In this document: one piece after another, positions 250-32,000 of the stretch
How the letters are laid out: every line of letters starts with the position of its first letter
How positions within the stretch are numbered: position 1 is the first letter of the stretch
Assembly (NCBI GenBank): GCA_049942775.1
Contig: CP188087.1
Span: 360,001 to 392,000, forward strand
Direction: 5' to 3'
Length of the DNA stretch: 32,000 bases
Origin: Candidatus Saccharimonadota bacterium
GTDB taxonomy: Bacteria > Pseudomonadota > Gammaproteobacteria > Enterobacterales > Enterobacteriaceae
Translations under genes and position numbers: made by a program
Notes under the pieces: model-generated
Databases searched by the model: none
What the model saw: the letters and a program-made list of their open reading frames with translations, nothing else
What the model was told of the DNA's origin: nothing

Positions 250-1597
<1,348 letters not shown>

Positions 1598-6947: not shown

Positions 6948-6973
6948 AAAAAAAAAAAAAAAAAAAAAAAAAA
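6948..6973. repeat. Poly(A)/poly(T) homopolymer, 26 nt, in the divergent rluD/bamD spacer
   Basis: Counted directly: A at 6948..6973, between the rluD start (6930) and the bamD start (7038). Confidence 0.9.
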
Positions 6974-16273: not shown

Positions 16274-17874
<1,601 letters not shown>

Positions 17875-19600: not shown

Positions 19601-22105
19601 TTATAACATTTTTTTTATTTTAAAAATATAATTTAGCGCTTCAATTGGAGAAATTTTTTCTGGAATTAAAGATTTTAAATAATCTACAACTATTGAATTT
19701 TTTTTAGATTTTCTTTCGTTTTTTTCTAGTTCTGTTATTTTTTTTACTGCTTCTTCAATAACCGATAGTGGTAATCCAGCCAATGAAGATACTAATAATC
19801 CATAACTTTTATTGGAAACACCAATTTTAACTTTATATAAAAAAAGTATTTTATTATTTTTTTTTAAAATTTTAAAAAACAAATTTTCAATTGAATTATA
19901 TTGATTTGATAATTCTGTTAATCTAAAAAAATGTGTAGAAAATAAAGTCATACAATTTATTTTTTCAACTAAATATTTTATACATGACCATGCTAAAGAA
20001 AATCCGTCAACAGTTGAAGTACCCCTACCTATTTCATCTATTATTACTAAACTATTTTTTGTAGCATTGTTTAGTATACTAACCATTTCTTTAATTTCAA
20101 CCATAAAAGTAGATTGTCCATAAGATAAATTATCAGAAGCACCAATTCTAGTAAATATCTTGTCAATAACTCCGATAGTAGCTGATTCTGCAGGAACAAA
20201 ACTACCAATCCAAGTTAATATAGCAATTAATGCTATTTGACGCATAAATGTGCTTTTTCCTCCCATATTAGGACCTGTGATAATAAACATTCTTTTATTT
20301 TCACAAAATTTAATTCCATTTTTTACAAAATTTATCCCAGTTATATTTTCTATTACTGGATGTCTTCCATTTTTTATAAACAAAATATTTTTATTAGTAG
20401 ATATTTTAGGACAAACATAATTTAAAGTTACTGACCGTTCTGATAAATTTGTTAATACATCTAATTCAGAAATTGCCGAATACATTTTTTGTAAATCAAT
20501 TATATATGGAGAAATATAATCAAATAATTCTTCATATAACATTTTTTCTAAAGCTATTATTCTAATTTCTGATTCTAAAAATTTTTTTTGATATTCTTGT
20601 AATAAAGGAAAAATATATCGATTCGAATGTTTAATTGATTGTTTTTTTATGTAATATAAAGGAACAAGATGTGAATATTTTTTATTAATTTGAATATAAT
20701 AACCAATTAAACTATTAAATCCTATTTTCAAAGATTTTATTCCTAATCTACTTCTTTCTTCTAATTCAATATTTTTAAGCAAATTTTCAGAAGTAGATTT
20801 CAATCTTCTTAATTCGTCTAATTCAGAATTATAATTTTCTGCAATCACACCTCCATTTCGTAAAGAATTCGAAGGATTATCACTTATACATTTTTTTAGT
20901 AAAAAATATAAATTAGGAAAGAATATTATTTTTTTTAATATTTTTTTTAAATTTTTATTTTTGGTTTTTTTTAAAATAAAATTTATTTTTGGAAATAATT
21001 TGATAGAATTTTTTAGTGATAAAAAATCTCTAGGTAAAGCGATTCTTAAAGAAATTCTCCCTACAATTCGTTCTAAATCTCCTATTTGAGATAAATATTT
21101 TTTTATTTTAAAAAAAATTTTTCGTAAATCTAAAATACTACCTTGTCTATTTTTAACTATTGATACATCTCTAATTGGAAAACATAACCAACGTTTTAAC
21201 ATTCTACTACCCATTTTAGTAGATGTTTTATCTAAAATAGATAATAAAGAATTATTTCCTGTTCCTAAAACATTTTTTATAATTTCTAAATTTTTAATTG
21301 TAGAAGAATTTATTTCAATATACTCATGATCTTTAACAAATTCTATTTTTCTAATATGTATTAAATTAGAACTATAATTTATGGATTGAACATACTTAAA
21401 TAAACATCCTGCCGATTTTAGGTTAAAAAAATCATCCTTTATTCCAAATTCTTTAATTTTATTTTTTCCAAAATGCATTTCTAGTTGATTTCTGATAACA
21501 GATAAGTCAAAATAAGAATTAGGTTTAGGATTTAAGCCTCTTCTGTTTTTTATTAATTTTTTTATTGACGAATGTTCAGGAAACAATAATTCATTAGGAT
21601 TAGTTAATTCAATTTTAGATTGCAAACTTTCAAAATTATTGCATTCAAAAATTTTAAATCTTCCTGAACTTAAATTTAAGGTTGAATAAGAAATTCTATC
21701 TTTTTCTTGATACAAGGCTGCTAATAAATTATCATTATTCCCATATAATAATTCTTCTTCTAAAACAGTTCCAGGAGTAATTATTCTTACTACTTTTCGT
21801 TCTAATATTCCAAACTTTGTTCCAGAGTTTTTTATTTGATCACAAATAACCACTTTTTCTCCTTTATTGATTAGTTGTGATAAATAAAAATTAACATTTG
21901 AACAAGGGACACCGGACATAGGTATTTCATCATTAGATGAATAACCTCGTTTCGTTAGAGTAATATTTAATAACGAAGATACTTTTTTAGCATCTTCAAA
22001 AAATACCTCATAAAAATCCCCCATTTGATAAAAAACAATCATTTTCGGGTATTTTTTTTTAAATAAAAAATACTGTTTCATCATAGGAGTACGATAATTT
22101 TTCAT
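19601..22105 (-). CDS. mutS: DNA mismatch repair protein MutS
   Basis: Mismatch-binding motif GDFYEVFFEDA, Walker A GPNMGGKSTFMRQ, and DEIGRGTST. Length is 834 aa versus 853 aa in E. coli. Confidence 0.95.
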   Translation of the reverse strand: MKNYRTPMMKQYFLFKKKYPKMIVFYQMGDFYEVFFEDAKKVSSLLNITLTKRGYSSNDEIPMSGVPCSNVNFYLSQLINKGEKVVICDQIKNSGTKFGILERKVVRIITPGTVLEEELLYGNNDNLLAALYQEKDRISYSTLNLSSGRFKIFECNNFESLQSKIELTNPNELLFPEHSSIKKLIKNRRGLNPKPNSYFDLSVIRNQLEMHFGKNKIKEFGIKDDFFNLKSAGCLFKYVQSINYSSNLIHIRKIEFVKDHEYIEINSSTIKNLEIIKNVLGTGNNSLLSILDKTSTKMGSRMLKRWLCFPIRDVSIVKNRQGSILDLRKIFFKIKKYLSQIGDLERIVGRISLRIALPRDFLSLKNSIKLFPKINFILKKTKNKNLKKILKKIIFFPNLYFLLKKCISDNPSNSLRNGGVIAENYNSELDELRRLKSTSENLLKNIELEERSRLGIKSLKIGFNSLIGYYIQINKKYSHLVPLYYIKKQSIKHSNRYIFPLLQEYQKKFLESEIRIIALEKMLYEELFDYISPYIIDLQKMYSAISELDVLTNLSERSVTLNYVCPKISTNKNILFIKNGRHPVIENITGINFVKNGIKFCENKRMFIITGPNMGGKSTFMRQIALIAILTWIGSFVPAESATIGVIDKIFTRIGASDNLSYGQSTFMVEIKEMVSILNNATKNSLVIIDEIGRGTSTVDGFSLAWSCIKYLVEKINCMTLFSTHFFRLTELSNQYNSIENLFFKILKKNNKILFLYKVKIGVSNKSYGLLVSSLAGLPLSVIEEAVKKITELEKNERKSKKNSIVVDYLKSLIPEKISPIEALNYIFKIKKML

Positions 22106-22146: not shown

Positions 22147-22758
22147 ATGAAAAAAATAATTTTTGTTATTGTTTTTATTTTCTCATGTAAAGTAAATTCA
22201 CAAACTTTTTTAGAAGGAACGAATTATATTCGACTTCCACATCCAATAAAAAATGCTGCTACTATAACTGAGTATTTTTCCTTTTATTGCAAATATTGTT
22301 ATCAATTTGAAAAAGAACTACATCTTTATTCACATTTAAGTAAAAATATAAAAATAAATTCATATCATTTAGAATTTTTTAAAAATAAACAAGAAAAAAT
22401 ACTAACTCATATTTGGTCCATAGCTAAACTTATTCATGTAGAAAACAAAATCATTTTACCAATGTTTGAATTCATAAATGAAACGAAAAGCAAAATCAAC
22501 TTTCAAACAATAAAAAAAATATTTATAGAAAATACAAATATTTCAAAACAAGAATTTAATAAATTATGGAATAGTTATTCTGTATTAAACCTTATTACTG
22601 AAAATAAAAAACAAAGTAAAAAAATCTATTTATCTTATGTTCCTCAAATTATTATTAATGGAAAATATACAATTCTAACAGAATCTTTAAATGCTGATTC
22701 ATTAGAAAATTTTATCCTAGAATATACTAAAATAATTAAATACTTAATAAAAAAATGA
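22147..22758 (+). CDS. dsbA: Periplasmic thiol:disulfide oxidoreductase DsbA (active site CKYC)
   Basis: There is an N-terminal signal peptide. EYFSFYCKYCYQFE aligns with E. coli EFFSFFCPHCYQFE. The cis-Pro region YVPQIIINGKY aligns with GVPAMFVNGKY, and the C-terminus ends KYL..KK. Confidence 0.9.
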   Translation: MKKIIFVIVFIFSCKVNSQTFLEGTNYIRLPHPIKNAATITEYFSFYCKYCYQFEKELHLYSHLSKNIKINSYHLEFFKNKQEKILTHIWSIAKLIHVENKIILPMFEFINETKSKINFQTIKKIFIENTNISKQEFNKLWNSYSVLNLITENKKQSKKIYLSYVPQIIINGKYTILTESLNADSLENFILEYTKIIKYLIKK

Positions 22759-23651
22759 AAAAACCAAAAATTATATTAATTGACGGAACATTTTATTTAT
22801 ATAAATTTTATTATACTTTTCCTACTTTTCAAAATAAAAAAAAAGAACCTACTGGAGCAATTTTTGGATTAATAAACATGATTTCTAAAATGTTTGTTTT
22901 ATACAATCCTAAAAATTTAATTGTTATTTTTGATTCACCTATAAAGAATTTTAGAAAGATATTATTTTCAAAATACAAATCCAACAGAAAAAAAATGCCA
23001 TTGCTTTTGCAAAAACAAATTGTTCATATAATTAAAATTATTAAATATTTAGGAATTCCAGTAGTAATAGTTTCTAAATTTGAAGCAGATGATGTAATTG
23101 GAACACTTAGCAAAATGTATGAAAAAAAAGATTACTCTGTTTTTATCAGTACTAAAGATAAAGATATGGCTCAATTAGTATCTAAACAAATAAAAATAAT
23201 TGATGGAACAAACAAAAAAATTCTTGGAATTGTAGAAATAAAAAAAAAATATGGAGTGTTTCCAAAACAAATATGCGATTTTTTAGGATTAATAGGAGAT
23301 AATTCAGACAATATACCAGGAGTTAAAGGAATTGGAAAAAAAACAGCAATACTACTGTTAGAAAAATTTGATTCTATAAAAGAGATATATAATGATATAA
23401 ACAAAATATCAAACATACCAGTAAAAAGATCAAATAATATTCAAAAAATAATCAAAAACAATAAAAAAAAAGCGTTTCTATCCAAAACACTTGCAACTAT
23501 CAATACTAATGTACCAATTAAAATTAAAAAAAAACAACTAAAATTAAAAAATTTAAACAAAAGAAAAATAAAAATATTATTAAAAAAATTTGAATTTAAA
23601 AATTGGAAAAATATAATCAATATGTTTTTAAAAAAAAAATTACTTAAATAA
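22755..23651 (+). CDS. polA: DNA polymerase I, 5'-3' exonuclease (FEN-like) domain as a separate cistron
   Basis: LIDGTFYLYKFYY, EADDVIGTL, ISTKDKDMAQL and GDNSDNIPGVKGIGKKTA are colinear with E. coli PolA residues about 1-320. The start overlaps the dsbA stop (ATGA at 22755..22758). Confidence 0.92.
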   Translation: MKKPKIILIDGTFYLYKFYYTFPTFQNKKKEPTGAIFGLINMISKMFVLYNPKNLIVIFDSPIKNFRKILFSKYKSNRKKMPLLLQKQIVHIIKIIKYLGIPVVIVSKFEADDVIGTLSKMYEKKDYSVFISTKDKDMAQLVSKQIKIIDGTNKKILGIVEIKKKYGVFPKQICDFLGLIGDNSDNIPGVKGIGKKTAILLLEKFDSIKEIYNDINKISNIPVKRSNNIQKIIKNNKKKAFLSKTLATINTNVPIKIKKKQLKLKNLNKRKIKILLKKFEFKNWKNIINMFLKKKLLK

Positions 23652-23660
23652 CAATAAAAA

Positions 23661-25376
23661 ATGAACGAAAACAAATTAAAAAAATATATAAAAAAAATAG
23701 AAAAATTAGATTGTTTCTCTATTTTTTTAGAAAAAACACATAATAAAGAAATTGTTGAGATTAGTATATATTCTCCTAAAGAAAAATCTATTATTTATTT
23801 TGATTGTTCTAACAATAAAAAAAAAAACAAATTTAATATTAAATTTGTTTTAAGTAATCTAAAACCATATTTAGAAAATTCAAATATAAAAAAAATTGGA
23901 TATGACTTTAAATCAGACTATCTATTATTAAAAAAAGAAAATATAAGCTTGTCAGGAATATACTTTGACACAATGTTAGGATTATATATAATAGATCCGT
24001 TTTTAAAAAAAGAAACAGAAAAAGAAAAAAAAAAACATATTGATTTCCTAACAGAAGAACTTTTAAATAATAAAAATCACGTAAGAAAAAAATCTAAAAT
24101 AAATTTCTATTTATATAAAAAAATTAACTATTTCCTAAAAAAGGATAAAATAAGTAAAAAAATATTCGAAAAAATTGATATTCCGATCATATCAGTAATT
24201 GCAAGAATGGAAATGAATGGAATTCTTATAGACAAAAAAATACTAAAAAAACAACTAAATGAAATAAATAAAAAATTATCGAATACAAAAAAAAACATAC
24301 AAAAACTAGAAAAAGAAAAATTTAATTTTTCCTCAAATAAACAAACCATTCAAATTTTATTAAAAAGAAATTTAATTTTAGATAAAAAAACAAAAAAAGG
24401 AAAAATATCAATTGATAAATCAGTCTTGAAAAGACTGTCAAAAAATGATCCTTTTCCAAAAAATATTTTAAAGTATCGTAGTTTAAAAAAAACAAAATCT
24501 AACTATATTATAAAGTTAATAAACTTAATAAATGAAAAAACAAAAAAAATACATACTTCTTACTATCAAACAACAACAATTAGTGGAAGAATTTCTTCCA
24601 AATCTCCAAATCTACAAAATATTCCTGTAAAAAAACAAGAAGACAGAAAAATAAGAAAGTCATTTATTCCAACTAAAGGTAATGTATTGTTATCAGCTGA
24701 TTATTCTCAAATTGAATTAAGAATAATTGCACATTTATCGAAAGATAAAAAATTAATTAAAAATTTCAAAGAAAACGAAGATGTTCATCTTTTAACAGCT
24801 TCTAACATATTTTCAAAAACAACTGAAAAAATTTCAATACAACAAAGACAATTTGCAAAAATTATAAATTTTTGTCTAATTTATGGAATAAGTGATTTTG
24901 GATTATCTAAAAAACTAAATATTAGTTTAAAAAATGCAAAAAAATATAAAGAAACATATTATAAAAAATATAAAAAAATACCTATTTTTTTCAAAAAAAT
25001 AATTAAGAAAACAAAAGAAAATGGATACATAACAACTATTACTGGAAGAAAAATAAATATTAACAACATCAACTCAAAAAATGTTTCTAGTCAACGATCA
25101 GCAGAAAGACAAGCTATAAATCTTACGATTCAAGGATCAGTTGCAGATATGCTAAAAATTGCAATGATAAAAATTGATAAATTAATACAAAAACAATTTA
25201 TTTTAAAAGCAAAAATGCTAATTCAAATACATGATGAATTGATTTTTGAAATTAAAAAAAAATATGTCATAAAACTAAAAAAATACATTTACAAAATAAT
25301 GAAAAATAGTTTAACAATGCAAGTACCCATTGAGATAAACATCAAAATTGGAGAAAATTGGAATCAATTATTCTAA
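23661..25376 (+). CDS. polA: DNA polymerase I, Klenow-like fragment (degenerate 3'-5' exo domain plus polymerase domain) as a separate cistron
   Basis: Motif A LSADYSQIELRIIAHLS, motif B RQFAKIINFCLIYG and motif C QIHDELIFE are present, as are HTSYYQTTTISGRISSKSPNLQNIP and FDTMLGLYII. The ORF is in the same frame as 22755..23651 and is separated from it by TAA CAA TAA AAA. Confidence 0.9.
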   Translation: MNENKLKKYIKKIEKLDCFSIFLEKTHNKEIVEISIYSPKEKSIIYFDCSNNKKKNKFNIKFVLSNLKPYLENSNIKKIGYDFKSDYLLLKKENISLSGIYFDTMLGLYIIDPFLKKETEKEKKKHIDFLTEELLNNKNHVRKKSKINFYLYKKINYFLKKDKISKKIFEKIDIPIISVIARMEMNGILIDKKILKKQLNEINKKLSNTKKNIQKLEKEKFNFSSNKQTIQILLKRNLILDKKTKKGKISIDKSVLKRLSKNDPFPKNILKYRSLKKTKSNYIIKLINLINEKTKKIHTSYYQTTTISGRISSKSPNLQNIPVKKQEDRKIRKSFIPTKGNVLLSADYSQIELRIIAHLSKDKKLIKNFKENEDVHLLTASNIFSKTTEKISIQQRQFAKIINFCLIYGISDFGLSKKLNISLKNAKKYKETYYKKYKKIPIFFKKIIKKTKENGYITTITGRKININNINSKNVSSQRSAERQAINLTIQGSVADMLKIAMIKIDKLIQKQFILKAKMLIQIHDELIFEIKKKYVIKLKKYIYKIMKNSLTMQVPIEINIKIGENWNQLF

Positions 25377-27972: not shown

Positions 27973-28007
27973 ACCAAAACTTAAAAAAAAAAAAAATAAA
28001 ATAAAAT

Positions 28008-29865: not shown

Positions 29866-30963
29866 ATGTCAGAAAGTAATACAATAAGAAATAAAATTAT
29901 AGAAATTAATAAAGAAACTAAAAAACTTTGGAGGAACCTTTGATTACAAAGTAAAAAAAAAAAACTAAATATAATTTCAGAAAAATTAAATAAAATAAAA
30001 AATTGGAATAATCCAAAAAAAATAAAAGAATTGCACGAAAAAAAAAACTTTTTAGAAAAAATTGTTAAACCTTTAGAAATAATTAAAAATTCTATTCAAG
30101 ATATAAATGATTTGTTTAAAATAATAGAAAACACTTCTGATTTCTCAATGTTACAAGAAATTAAAACAGAAATTTTAGAAATAGAAAAAAAAATTCAAAA
30201 TATAAAAAAAATACATTTTTTTACAAAAAAAGAAGACAAATATAATTGTTATATAGATATACAATCTGGTTCTGGTGGTATTGAATCTCAGGATTGGGCG
30301 AAAATTCTTCTTAAAATGTATTTACGTTGGTGCGAATTAAAAAAATTTAAAACTAAAATTATAGAACAAACAATTGGTGAAATAATTGGAATTAAATCAG
30401 CAACCATTAAAATTTCTGGAAAATTTTCTTTCGGATGGATGAGAACAGAAAGTGGAATACATCGATTAGTTAGAAAAAGTCCTTTCGATACAGGAAACCG
30501 CAGACATACTTCTTTTTGTTCAATTTTCGTATACCCGGATATTTATAAAAATAAAGAAATTAAAATTGATACATCTGAATTGCGAATTGATGTTTATAGA
30601 TCATCTGGAGCTGGAGGACAACATGTTAATAGAACAGAATCAGCAGTTCGTATTACTCACTTACCTACAGGAATCATTACACAATGCCAAAAAAATCGAT
30701 CTCAACATAAAAATAAAGAACAAGCTTTAAAACAAATTAAAGAGAAATTAACTCAATTACAAAATAAAAAAGAAGAAATACAAAAAAAAAAAATAGAAAA
30801 TAAAAAATCTAATATTACTTGGGGACAACAAATTCGTTCTTATGTATTAGATCAATCTAGAATTAAAGATTTAAGAACTGGCATTGAAACCAGAAAAATA
30901 AACGAAGTATTAAACGGAAATTTAGAATTATTTATTCTATCTAACTTACAACTCGAATTATAG
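29866..30963 (+). CDS. prfB: Peptide chain release factor 2, with the programmed +1 frameshift site and an additional frame problem in an A12 tract
   Basis: ORF1 (MSESNTIRNKIIEINKETKKLWRNL-TGA) has 25 codons before the UGA, as in E. coli. The body contains SPF (RKSPFD), GGQ (SGAGGQHVNRTESAVRITH) and QIRSYVLD. See the findings for the frame arithmetic. Confidence 0.93.
29930..29943 (+). promoter_or_regulatory. RF2 autoregulatory recoding site: SD-like GGAGG, 3-nt spacer, CTT TGA
   Basis: ggagg aac ctt tga t has the same architecture as E. coli AGGGGG UAU CUU UGA C. Confidence 0.9.
29953..29964 (+). repeat. Poly(A) tract, 12 nt, in prfB, starting 10 nt after the last base of the UGA shift codon
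   Basis: Counted directly: gtaaaaaaaa aaaac. Confidence 0.9.
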
Positions 30964-30975
30964 GGCACTTCTTAA

Positions 30976-32000
30976 ATGTTAGAAATAGAAAAAAAGAATA
31001 AGAATAATGAATATAAAAATAGATCAGAAAAACTAAAAAAAATGAAAAAAAAAGGTTTTTCTTTTCCAAATAAATTTAAACCAAATTACACTGCTAAAAA
31101 AATTTTATCAAAATTTTCTGATTTTACTAAAGAAAATCTGAAAAAATTAAAGATAGAAATAAAAATAGCTGGACGAATACTACAAAAAAGAACTATTGGA
31201 AAAGCAACATTTATATTAATACAAGACAACACACATTGCATACAAATTTACATTAGACAAAATAACATTTTTTATCAACAAAAATATAAATCTTTAATGA
31301 AAAAGATAGATATAGGAGACATAATTAGTACACAGGGGGAATTATTTAAAACACAAACTAATCAATTATCTATAAGATGTATGGAAATAAATATACTAAC
31401 AAAATCTCTTAGATCTTTGCCTGAAAAATATCATGGTTTATCAGATCCTGAAATTAAATTTCGTAAAAGATATCTAGATCTAATAGCCAATAAAAAATCA
31501 AAAAAAAAATTTATCATTAGATCAAAAATAATTGCAGAAATAAGAAAATTTATGAATTATCACCAATTTCTAGAAGTAGAAACTCCAATGTTGCATACAA
31601 TTCCTGGAGGTGCCACAGCACGTCCATTTACGACTTATCATAATGCATATGATACAAGTATGTACTTACGAATTTCTCCAGAATTATATTTAAAACAATT
31701 AATTATTGGTGGTTTTACTAAAATTTTTGAAATTAATCGTAATTTTAGAAATGAAGGCATTTCATTCAAACATAATCCAGAGTTCACTATGCTAGAATTA
31801 TACATGGCTTATGCTAATTACAAAGACATGATGAATCTTTTAAAAAAACTATTAAAAAATATCTCAAATGAAATCTTTGGAACAAAAATAATAATGTACA
31901 AAGATCAAAAATTTGATTTTTCAAAACCATATAATGAATTTACGATGCAAGAATCTATTTTAAAATATGTTCCTAGTATACAAGAATCAGATTTAAAAAA
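30976..32000 (+). CDS. lysS: Lysine--tRNA ligase (class II), 5' part; continues beyond the window
   Basis: ATG at 30976. KGFSFPNKF, AGRILQKRTIGKATFILIQD, RKRYLDLI, VETPMLHTIPGGATARPF, LRISPELYLKQLIIGGF and FEINRNFRNEGIS.KHNPEFTMLE are colinear with E. coli LysS. It is missing from the ORF track because there is no stop within the window. Confidence 0.94.
   Translation, partial: MLEIEKKNKNNEYKNRSEKLKKMKKKGFSFPNKFKPNYTAKKILSKFSDFTKENLKKLKIEIKIAGRILQKRTIGKATFILIQDNTHCIQIYIRQNNIFYQQKYKSLMKKIDIGDIISTQGELFKTQTNQLSIRCMEINILTKSLRSLPEKYHGLSDPEIKFRKRYLDLIANKKSKKKFIIRSKIIAEIRKFMNYHQFLEVETPMLHTIPGGATARPFTTYHNAYDTSMYLRISPELYLKQLIIGGFTKIFEINRNFRNEGISFKHNPEFTMLELYMAYANYKDMMNLLKKLLKNISNEIFGTKIIMYKDQKFDFSKPYNEFTMQESILKYVPSIQESDLK

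What the first reader, a model, noticed from the sequence alone, without database searches (positions are those of the whole stretch)
29926..29968. prfB needs two recoding events: the classical +1 shift at CUU-UGA, then a compensating slip in an A12 tract
Seen in the sequence: the canonical RF2 site is intact (GGAGG-aac-CTT-TGA at 29930..29943, 25 codons after the ATG, as in E. coli). After the normal +1 shift the frame reads GAT TAC AAA GTA AAA AAA AAA AAC TAA, which is D Y K V K K K N stop (TAA at 29966..29968). The D-Y matches the E. coli post-shift residues DY exactly, so this is the ancestral frame. The rest of RF2 (LNIISEKL...SPF...GGQ) lies in the original zero frame, the same frame as ORF1 and its in-frame TGA. 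With A13 (or A10) instead of A12, the +1 product would be a continuous ...NL-DYKVKKKKLNIISEKL..., the same length as E. coli ...YL-DYDAKKERLEEVNAELE. As encoded, full-length RF2 therefore requires one of three routes: (a) the +1 ribosomal shift plus RNA-polymerase slippage adding one A; (b) the +1 shift followed by a -1 ribosomal slip on the A-run; or (c) direct UGA read-through with no shift. TGA is still used as a stop here (ffh at 1595..1597 and dsbA at 22756..22758), so RF2 should be required. I am not aware of a described case of two recoding signals about 10 nt apart in the factor that decodes UGA. A homopolymer miscall must be excluded first.
Basis: partly seen in the sequence, partly recalled or inferred. 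Interest (0 to 1): 0.75.

Follow-up and report, generated by a model that had tools for sequence, protein, structure and literature searches.

The report
Frameshifted but conserved release-factor-2 gene
In the aphid symbiont Buchnera from two Tetraneura species, the release factor 2 gene has lost one base in or just before a run of 12 A's, right after its normal programmed frameshift site, yet it is still kept intact by selection, so it is probably rescued by slippage on the A-run, which is a known endosymbiont trick seen here in an unusual gene.

Summary
The window is Buchnera aphidicola of Tetraneura sorini (22% GC).

- **What the sequence shows.** prfB has an intact RF2 +1 cassette (GGAGG-AAC-CTT-TGA, 25 codons after the ATG). 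The +1 frame runs only DYKVKKKN and stops at TAA 29966-68. The other 332 codons, including SPF and GGQ, lie in the ORF1 frame.
- **Replication.** The A12 tract is identical in six other assemblies of five sequencing runs. Together with the window these represent three haplotypes (T. sorini and two T. akinire types).
- **Ancestral state.** Buchnera of T. ulmi is one base longer and has an ordinary single-shift gene.
- **Selection.** With one A added, the protein is 365 aa and aligns without gaps to RF2. Since the two carrier lineages split, the body has dN/dS of about 0.09 and no further indels, so it is still expressed.
- **Most likely mechanism (inferred, not shown).** The canonical +1 ribosomal shift acts on the fraction of transcripts that gained one A by RNA-polymerase slippage. 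This rescue was described for Buchnera and Blochmannia in 2008. Ribosomal -1 slippage or UGA read-through are alternative or additional routes.
- **Verdict.** This is a new member of a known kind. Its distinctive point is two recoding steps in series, in the factor that reads UGA.

The parts
29866..29940 (+). prfB ORF1: 25 sense codons (MSESNTIRNKIIEINKETKKLWRNL), in frame 0
   Evidence: The length is the same as in Salmonella and other RF2 genes.
29930..29934 (+). Internal Shine-Dalgarno-like GGAGG, 3 nt upstream of the shift codon
   Evidence: It is identical in T. akinire and T. ulmi Buchnera.
29938..29943 (+). +1 shift site CTT TGA (Leu25 followed by an in-frame UGA)
29942..29968 (+). Short +1-frame segment GAT TAC AAA GTA AAA AAA AAA AAC TAA (DYKVKKKN, then stop)
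   Evidence: Y27 is present in all five homologues aligned.
29953..29964 (+). A12 tract, the presumed site of compensating slippage. A13 or A10 would join the +1 frame to the RF2 body.
   Evidence: The length of 12 is found in the window and in L001 and L004-L008. T. ulmi Buchnera has GAAAGAAAAAAAGAAAAA, which is 1 nt longer.
29966..29968 (+). TAA that closes the +1 frame on unedited A12 mRNA
29965..30963 (+). RF2 body: 332 codons plus TAG, in frame 0 relative to ORF1. It carries the PCRF and RF-1 domains, SPF at 30478-86 and GGQ at 30613-21.
   Evidence: Compared with T. akinire Buchnera, dN is 0.014 and dS is 0.16.
30976..32000 (+). lysS, the downstream neighbour in the usual prfB-lysS arrangement. 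It runs off the end of the window.
   Evidence: the gene order matches L003 and L004.

Best explanation
This is a real, inherited 1-nt loss in prfB of Buchnera aphidicola from Tetraneura sorini and T. akinire. It lies in or just upstream of an A12 tract, 10-22 nt downstream of an intact RF2 autoregulatory +1 frameshift cassette, and the gene is still functional.

**Proposed mechanism**
1. RNA polymerase slips on the A12/T12 tract and produces a mixed mRNA pool (A11, A12, A13 and others).
2. Ribosomes start at ATG 29866. When RF2 is scarce, they shift +1 at CUU-UGA, helped by the GGAGG 3 nt upstream.
3. On A13 mRNAs (less often A10 or A16) the +1 frame continues into the RF2 body and gives a 365-aa protein, ...NL-DYKVKKKK-LNIISEKL....
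4. On unedited A12 mRNAs the shifted ribosome stops at UAA 29966-68 after 33 residues, unless it slips -1 on the A-run.

Feedback by RF2 at the UGA is kept, but maximum output is scaled down by the slipped fraction.

**Shown:** steps 1-4 are consistent with the sequence, the frameshift is real and conserved, and the downstream frame is under selection.
**Inferred:** that slippage occurs here, and which of the two polymer-slip mechanisms dominates.
For: **Not an artefact.** A12 is found in the window, in CP188088 (T. akinire) and in Logan assemblies of five runs. These are the Illumina runs of both published genomes, one Nanopore run and two runs I could not attribute. The T. sorini Illumina contig is 100% identical to the window over 4017 nt.

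**Derived state.** T. ulmi Buchnera is 1 nt longer and reads DYERKKEKL in one continuous +1 frame. All other RF2 proteins aligned are gapless against the A13-repaired product.

**Still expressed.**
- Between the two frameshift-bearing lineages, codons 34-365 differ at 28 synonymous and 11 non-synonymous positions. This gives dN/dS of about 0.09, with binomial P = 2e-12 against neutrality.
- Codons 34-94, directly behind the tract, have dN/dS of 0.24. That is no more relaxed than on the path to T. ulmi (0.32).
- prfB has no further indels, whereas 3 indel events occurred in 312 nt of flanking spacers. Under neutrality about 10.6 would be expected in the gene, P about 3e-5.

**Cassette intact.** GGAGG-AAC-CTT-TGA and the following GAT TAC are identical in all three species.

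**Mechanistic precedent.**
- Frameshifted Buchnera and Blochmannia genes give 12-50% frame-corrected transcripts at long poly(A) runs (PMC5009743).
- About 30% full-length transcripts were reported from frameshifted genes, and such frameshifts are conserved between species (PMC3017870).
- In Buchnera, transcription errors in A/T runs are mainly single-base insertions, and they rise exponentially with run length up to 11 (PMC5574713). A single insertion is exactly the +1 A needed here.

**RF2 is still needed.** TGA terminates ffh and dsbA, and no ORF in the window has an internal TGA.
Against: - No transcript or protein data were available, so slippage at this tract is assumed from other genes and other strains.
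- The zero frame is open across the UGA, so read-through alone could give a 365-aa protein.
- A reversion from A12 to A13 should be frequent and apparently beneficial, yet it is absent from all three haplotypes. The simple rescue model does not explain this.
- The most parsimonious alignment with T. ulmi puts the lost base at the G right after GATTAC rather than inside the run. The tract may therefore be only the place of compensation, not of the lesion.
- Shared A12 could in principle come from parallel deletions, which would weaken the dN/dS argument.
- The genome announcement says the Illumina libraries were made with an RNA library kit. If the reads were cDNA, the polished consensus would reflect the modal transcript.
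Confidence: 0.6

Rival explanations
1. Two ribosomal events act in series on unedited A12 mRNA. The +1 shift at CUU-UGA is followed by a -1 slip (or sliding) of tRNA-Lys on the A-run (A AAA AAA / A AAA AAC), and transcriptional slippage contributes little.
For: After the +1 shift the A-run offers perfect X XXY YYZ re-pairing at every position. Ribosome sliding on lysine-encoding poly(A) is established knowledge from my own recollection (Koutmou et al. 2015); I did not retrieve it here.
Against: No stimulator was found. The 121-nt region around the site folds no better than shuffled sequence (z = -0.76). The GGAGG lies 18 nt or more upstream of the first heptamer, which from my own knowledge is further than the roughly 10-14 nt that stimulates -1 shifts. 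Measured precedents in Buchnera and Blochmannia are at the RNA level.
Confidence: 0.15
2. There is a single recoding event: UGA read-through in the zero frame. The 1-nt loss put the RF2 body into the ORF1 frame, so near-cognate decoding of UGA (probably by tRNA-Trp) gives ...NL-W-LQSKKKK-LNIISEKL... (365 aa). This would still be autoregulated, because read-through rises when RF2 is low.
For: The zero frame is continuous from the ATG to TAG apart from the UGA, and the product has exactly the family length. A comparable idea, an in-frame UGA in prfB that is read through at a low level, has been proposed for the Providencia symbiont of a leech (PMC10540940).
Against: The intact SD-like element and CUU-UGA should send most paused ribosomes into the +1 frame, not into read-through (established E. 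coli RF2 biology, from my own knowledge). The stop context is UGA-U, not the leaky UGA-A discussed in PMC10540940. The read-through product replaces Tyr27, which is present in all five homologues aligned. There is no sign of UGA used as a sense codon elsewhere in the window.
Confidence: 0.12
3. The gene is not rescued. It is a young pseudogene, or only an N-terminally truncated RF2 is made from an internal start (TTG 30031 or ATG 30148).
For: The closest protein on record is the 271-aa internal-start product of T. akinire Buchnera, held only by Logan, and no NCBI protein for either A12 genome appears among the top hits. That pattern is consistent with 'pseudo' annotation, which is my inference; the window's own 271-aa product is not on record. 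The published genomes list 32 and 29 pseudogenes. Other genes in this window also look damaged: ffh, pyrG and polA.
Against: dN/dS is about 0.09 (P = 2e-12) and no further indels have occurred since the two carrier lineages split. Codons 34-94, upstream of the internal starts, are still constrained, with dN/dS of 0.24, although only 11 differences support this. TGA stops are still in use.
Confidence: 0.07
4. Rescue happens at the DNA level. Buchnera cells carry many genome copies (established knowledge, from my own recollection), and a minority of copies with A13, produced by replication slippage, supply intact prfB.
For: Long A-runs are length-unstable at the DNA level in these lineages. [quoted passage not shown]
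Against: Every consensus assembly shows A12. mutS is intact in the window. Replication slippage is orders of magnitude rarer than transcription errors (PMC5574713 abstract).
Confidence: 0.04
5. It is a homopolymer miscall or assembly artefact, and the true tract is A13.
For: The source genome was assembled from Nanopore reads and polished with 75-nt Illumina reads. The much longer A27 in ffh cannot be verified, because the Illumina contig ends inside it.
Against: A12 is found in six other assemblies of five runs and, with the window, in three haplotypes. These include Illumina-only assemblies of both species and two further runs I could not attribute.
Confidence: 0.02

Closest known systems
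Poly(A)-tract frameshifted but functional genes of insect endosymbionts, rescued by RNA-polymerase slippage (Tamas et al. 2008 PNAS; Wernegreen et al. 2010 MBE; used for Blochmannia annotation in PMC3017870 and PMC4389277)
   Same: The host is an AT-rich obligate endosymbiont. A single-base frame error sits at a long A-run. The gene is otherwise intact, the frameshift is shared between related species, there is no rate acceleration, and reduced output is expected.
   Different: Here the tract lies about 10 nt behind a programmed ribosomal frameshift site. The corrected transcript therefore still needs a ribosomal +1 shift, and the unedited transcript is open in the zero frame apart from a UGA. 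Transcript heterogeneity has not been measured for this gene.
Canonical prfB (RF2) autoregulatory +1 programmed frameshift, as in E. coli
   Same: It has 25 codons, an SD-like element 3 nt upstream, CUU-UGA, and D-Y as the first post-shift residues. The RF2 body carries SPF and GGQ, and lysS lies downstream.
   Different: The +1 frame closes after 8 codons, and the body is in the zero frame. The nucleotide after UGA is U rather than C.
Blochmannia vafer / B. floridanus dnaX (PMC3017870)
   Same: It is a gene that has a programmed ribosomal slippage site and also carries a conserved poly(A) frameshift downstream, which is thought to be corrected by transcriptional slippage.
   Different: In dnaX the ribosomal shift makes an alternative short product and is not needed for the long one. 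In prfB both events would be needed in series for the only functional product.
prfB with an in-frame UGA in 'Ca. Providencia siddallii' of Haementeria acuecueyetzin (PMC10540940)
   Same: A symbiont RF2 gene whose own expression is impaired in a way that depends on UGA decoding, with possible consequences for UGA termination genome-wide.
   Different: That case is a UGG-to-UGA change inside the body, accompanied by about 20% of genes carrying sense UGA. Here no sense UGA is seen in the window, and the lesion is a frameshift.

Membership tests
RF2 +1 programmed frameshift cassette | Short ORF1 (about 25 codons) that ends in an in-frame UGA preceded by CUU | tested here: met
   ORF1 spans 29866-29940 and is followed by CTT TGA at 29938-43.
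RF2 +1 programmed frameshift cassette | Shine-Dalgarno-like element 3 nt upstream of the shift codon | tested here: met
   GGAGG at 29930-34, then AAC, then CTT. It is conserved in three species. The anti-SD of the 16S rRNA is not in the window and was not checked.
RF2 +1 programmed frameshift cassette | The +1 frame runs continuously from the shift site through the whole RF2 body | tested here: not met
   The +1 frame stops at TAA 29966-68 after 8 codons, and the body is in frame 0.
RF2 protein family | PCRF and RF-1 domains with the SPF and GGQ motifs | tested here: met
   Pfam PF03462 scores 7e-50 and PF00472 scores 3e-38. SPF is at 30478-86 and GGQ at 30613-21.
Endosymbiont poly(A) frameshift rescued by transcriptional slippage | Frame error at an A/T homopolymer of about 9 or more, in an AT-rich obligate endosymbiont | tested here: met
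   The tract is A12, the window is 22% GC, and the organism is Buchnera of Tetraneura. Caveat: the lost base may instead lie 6 nt upstream of the run.
Endosymbiont poly(A) frameshift rescued by transcriptional slippage | The gene is otherwise intact, and the frameshift is conserved across lineages without accelerated evolution | tested here: met
   The repaired product is 365 aa. A12 is present in three haplotypes of two host species. dN/dS is about 0.09 and there are no other indels.
Endosymbiont poly(A) frameshift rescued by transcriptional slippage | A mixed transcript pool that contains frame-restored mRNAs, and a full-length protein | not testable with these tools
   Only consensus assemblies are accessible, with no read-level or proteomic data.
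Programmed -1 ribosomal frameshift site | Slippery heptamer X XXY YYZ | tested here: met
   A AAA AAA and A AAA AAC occur in the post-shift frame within 29953-65.
Programmed -1 ribosomal frameshift site | A downstream RNA structure or a suitably spaced upstream SD stimulator | tested here: not met
   The fold of 29920-30040 gives -7.9 kcal/mol with z = -0.76. GGAGG lies 18 nt or more upstream.
UGA reassignment (genetic code 4) or systematic UGA read-through | In-frame UGA inside otherwise intact conserved genes; UGA not used as a terminator | tested here: not met
   Most long ORFs in the window match their family profiles end to end under table 11; the exceptions (ffh, pyrG, polA) are not interrupted by an internal TGA. 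TGA ends ffh and dsbA. tRNA-Trp is not in the window.
Decaying pseudogene | Relaxed constraint (dN/dS near 1) and accumulation of further indels or stops | tested here: not met
   There are 11 non-synonymous and 28 synonymous differences, P = 2e-12. No indels occurred where about 10.6 would be expected at the spacer rate.

The most novel reading that the evidence does not exclude
The A12 state is not merely a tolerated lesion. It is kept by selection as a second, constitutive throttle in series with the RF2-sensing +1 shift, so that this Buchnera lineage runs on chronically low RF2. This would be a possible first step towards UGA read-through and UGA-to-Trp reassignment, as proposed for Providencia siddallii. 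It would be the first case of obligatory transcriptional plus translational recoding in one essential gene.
Probability: 0.15. Interest if true: 0.7.

Novelty: new member of a known kind. Interest (0 to 1): 0.45.

Why it matters
RF2 is the only factor that reads UGA, and its synthesis is the textbook example of autoregulatory frameshifting. A natural lineage in which full-length RF2 seems to need a second, error-based correction a few codons later raises three points:

- It shows how far essential translation genes can drift in bottlenecked symbionts without being lost.
- It gives a simple natural test bed (A11/A12/A13) for separating RNA-polymerase slippage from ribosome slippage on poly(A).
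- It bears on how weakened RF2 expression might precede UGA reassignment in reduced genomes.

It also matters for annotation. Such genes are likely to be called pseudogenes, and RF2 would then be wrongly scored as absent.

Tried and rejected
- **Artefact hypothesis.** Rejected after finding A12 in L001 and L004-L008.
- **Source of the window.** An exact look-up of the window's 271-aa internal-start RF2 found nothing. The gmk look-up located the T. sorini Illumina contig instead.
- **Other Buchnera prfB loci.** I tried to inspect the loci annotated as short proteins (Diuraphis noxia P0077, Nipponaphis monzeni P0036) for similar double sites. Neither is on record, so there is no survey beyond the protein alignment.
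- **pyrG check.** I tried to verify the pyrG lesion through the eno protein, but it is not on record.
- **Primary papers.** Tamas 2008 and Wernegreen 2010 are not held in the library. Their results are cited through PMC5009743, PMC3017870 and PMC4389277.
- **Run identities.** SRR14373458, SRR7186505 and SRR7186529 could not be traced to a paper. Treating them as independent of the published genomes is an inference from the accession series and from their distinct haplotype.
- **Downstream RNA structure.** A fold search for a -1 stimulator found none.
- **Rfam and tRNA scans.** These found only five tRNAs and nothing near prfB.

Full report
**1. What is in the sequence.**
The window has 22% G+C and is dense in homopolymers, with 77 A or T runs of 9 or more. 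prfB starts at ATG 29866.

- After 25 sense codons comes the classical RF2 cassette: GGAGG (29930-34), AAC, CTT (29938-40), TGA (29941-43).
- Skipping the T of TGA gives GAT TAC AAA GTA AAA AAA AAA AAC TAA. This is DYKVKKKN followed by a stop at 29966-68.
- The A-run spans 29953-64 and is exactly 12.
- Everything else that makes RF2 lies in the frame of ORF1, from CTA 29965 to TAG 30961-63. That includes the PCRF and RF-1 domains, SPF at 30478-86 and GGQ at 30613-21.
- The other two frames of that stretch carry 28 and 36 stops, so the long open frame is not chance.
- lysS follows, as in other enterobacterial relatives.

**2. Where the window comes from, and whether A12 is real.**
- A protein-guided scan of species-representative genomes found CP188088, Buchnera aphidicola of Tetraneura akinire, with 97% amino-acid identity.
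- A Logan assembly of run SRR33632137 is 100% identical to the window over 4017 nt.
- The genome announcement PMC12243488 lists that run as the Illumina data for Buchnera of Tetraneura sorini (CP188087, 533,871 bp). That genome was assembled from Nanopore reads and polished with Pilon. The window is therefore almost certainly from CP188087.
- A12 is present in the window, in the T. sorini Illumina contig, in CP188088, and in Logan assemblies of T. akinire-type Buchnera from four runs: one Illumina and one Nanopore run of the published project, plus two runs I could not attribute.
- Together these represent three haplotypes.
- A homopolymer miscall is therefore effectively excluded.
- One caveat remains. 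The announcement says an RNA library kit was used for the Illumina libraries.

**3. Polarity of the change.**
- Buchnera of T. ulmi (OZ060366) has the same cassette, followed by GAT TAC GAA AGA AAA AAA GAA AAA TTA. This reads DYERKKEKL in one continuous +1 frame and gives 365 aa.
- The T. sorini/T. akinire sequence is one base shorter between GATTAC and the Leu codon.
- Inserting one A into the run gives a 365-aa product in every A12 assembly. It aligns without any gap to RF2 of T. ulmi, Eriosoma and Pemphigus Buchnera, Blochmannia and Salmonella, and it keeps Tyr27, which all of them share.
- The most parsimonious alignment actually places the missing base at the G next to GATTAC, with G-to-A changes then fusing the run. 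The run may therefore be the site of compensation rather than of the lesion.

**4. Is the gene alive?**
- Between T. sorini and T. akinire Buchnera, both of which carry the frameshift, the region is about 5% diverged: 258 mismatches in 5040 nt.
- In codons 34-365 there are 28 synonymous and 11 non-synonymous differences. This gives dN = 0.014, dS = 0.16, a ratio of about 0.09, and binomial P = 2e-12 against neutrality.
- Codons 34-94, directly behind the tract and upstream of any plausible internal start, have dN/dS of 0.24. On the path to T. ulmi the figure is 0.32, so this region is not specially relaxed.
- All four indel events between the two lineages in this 5 kb lie in spacers or are a 3-nt in-frame change in ygfZ.
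- At the spacer rate, about 10.6 events would be expected in prfB, and none is seen (P about 3e-5).
- An intergenic A14 (27983-96) differs in length even between T. akinire haplotypes, whereas the prfB A12 does not.
- TGA still ends ffh and dsbA. No ORF in the window has an internal TGA, so RF2 is still needed and the code is standard.

The downstream frame is therefore translated and selected. The only escape from this conclusion is repeated parallel loss of the same base, which is less parsimonious. It would also imply that A12 is well tolerated.

**5. How it most likely works.**
Three routes give a 365-aa protein: (a) an A13 (or A10/A16) mRNA plus the normal +1 shift, (b) the +1 shift followed by a -1 ribosomal slip on the run, and (c) UGA read-through in the zero frame.

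*Route (a) is favoured.*
- It is the documented behaviour of these organisms. The Atkins et al. review summarises Tamas et al. 2008 as 12-50% frame-corrected transcripts at long poly(A) runs in frameshifted Buchnera and Blochmannia genes.
- Williams and Wernegreen cite about 30% full-length transcripts and conservation of such frameshifts between species.
- Traverse and Ochman show that in Buchnera, transcription errors in A/T runs are single-base insertions that rise exponentially with run length. An insertion is exactly what is needed here.

*Route (b) is chemically easy on an A-run.* However, no stimulatory structure or well-spaced SD was found.

*Route (c) must compete with an intact, conserved +1 cassette.* It also sits in a UGA-U context and would replace the conserved Tyr27.

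In all routes the RF2-sensing step at UGA is retained, so feedback survives. In (a) and (b) the ceiling of expression is lowered by the slipped fraction. None of this is measured here.

**6. Comparison with what is known.**
- The cassette passes every test for the RF2 +1 site except the defining one, that the +1 frame carries the protein.
- The locus passes every sequence-level test for the endosymbiont class of poly(A) frameshifts rescued by polymerase infidelity. The transcript and protein tests cannot be done with these tools.
- A partial precedent for a programmed ribosomal shift site combined with a poly(A) frameshift is Blochmannia dnaX. There, however, the two events are not needed in series.
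- The Providencia siddallii study argues that an impaired prfB can start UGA reassignment. No sign of that is visible in this window.
- Literature searches for prfB together with poly(A) slippage in endosymbionts, and for Tetraneura Buchnera, found no description of this site.

**7. Verdict.**
- It is a conserved, selected frameshift in an essential translation factor.
- The explanation is a known endosymbiont mechanism acting in an unusual place.
- The mechanism remains inferred.
- The finding is of moderate interest. It is a clean natural system for separating transcriptional from translational slippage, and it is a warning for annotation. It is not a new kind of system.

Noticed in passing
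window 250-1597 (A27 at 622-648): ffh is split at a 27-A run. The N domain and the start of the G domain (...GKFIKKKKKKKKK) are in one frame, and the rest (NILITSTDVYRAAAIKQLE...) is in the +1 frame, so A26 or A29 would be needed. T. akinire and T. ulmi Buchnera have intact 446-aa Ffh with a much shorter lysine run. The Illumina-only contig of T. sorini ends inside the tract, so the true length, and therefore the frameshift, is unverified.
   Followed up: partly
window 16274-17874 (junction 16385-16403): pyrG looks disrupted outside any long homopolymer. The first 40 codons ([11 protein letters not shown]...NVTIIK) are in a different frame from the 455-aa body, which matches the CTP synthase profile only from position 84. 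The conserved LDPYI segment is missing, which fits a deletion of about 16 nt between GATCC repeats. It was not checked in other assemblies.
   Followed up: no
window 22755-25376: DNA polymerase I is encoded as two ORFs in the same frame. The 5'-3' exonuclease part ends at TAA 23649-51, and a Klenow-like part starts at ATG 23661. The split is at the domain boundary, with an A10 run just upstream. This is either a nonsense split or a true two-gene arrangement.
   Followed up: no
window 1595-1597 versus L011 2839-2841: The ffh stop codon is TGA in the window (T. sorini Buchnera) but TAA in T. akinire Buchnera. Both TGA stops in the window (ffh and dsbA) are backed by an in-frame TAA or TAG 2-6 codons later.
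   Followed up: partly
window 6948-6973 and 27983-27996: There are very long intergenic A-runs: A26 between rluD and bamD, and A14 after typA. [quoted passage not shown] This shows how unstable unconstrained runs are.
   Followed up: partly
Source record (PMC12243488): The genome announcement for CP188087 and CP188088 states that the Illumina libraries used for polishing were made with a TruSeq RNA Library Prep Kit. If the reads were cDNA, consensus lengths of long homopolymers could reflect transcripts rather than DNA. It lists 32 and 29 pseudogenes, against 17 in the Eriosoma harunire strain.
   Followed up: no
window 19601-22105: mutS is full length (834 aa, end-to-end profile match), so mismatch repair of homopolymer loops is not obviously lost in this lineage despite the many long A-runs.
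   Followed up: no
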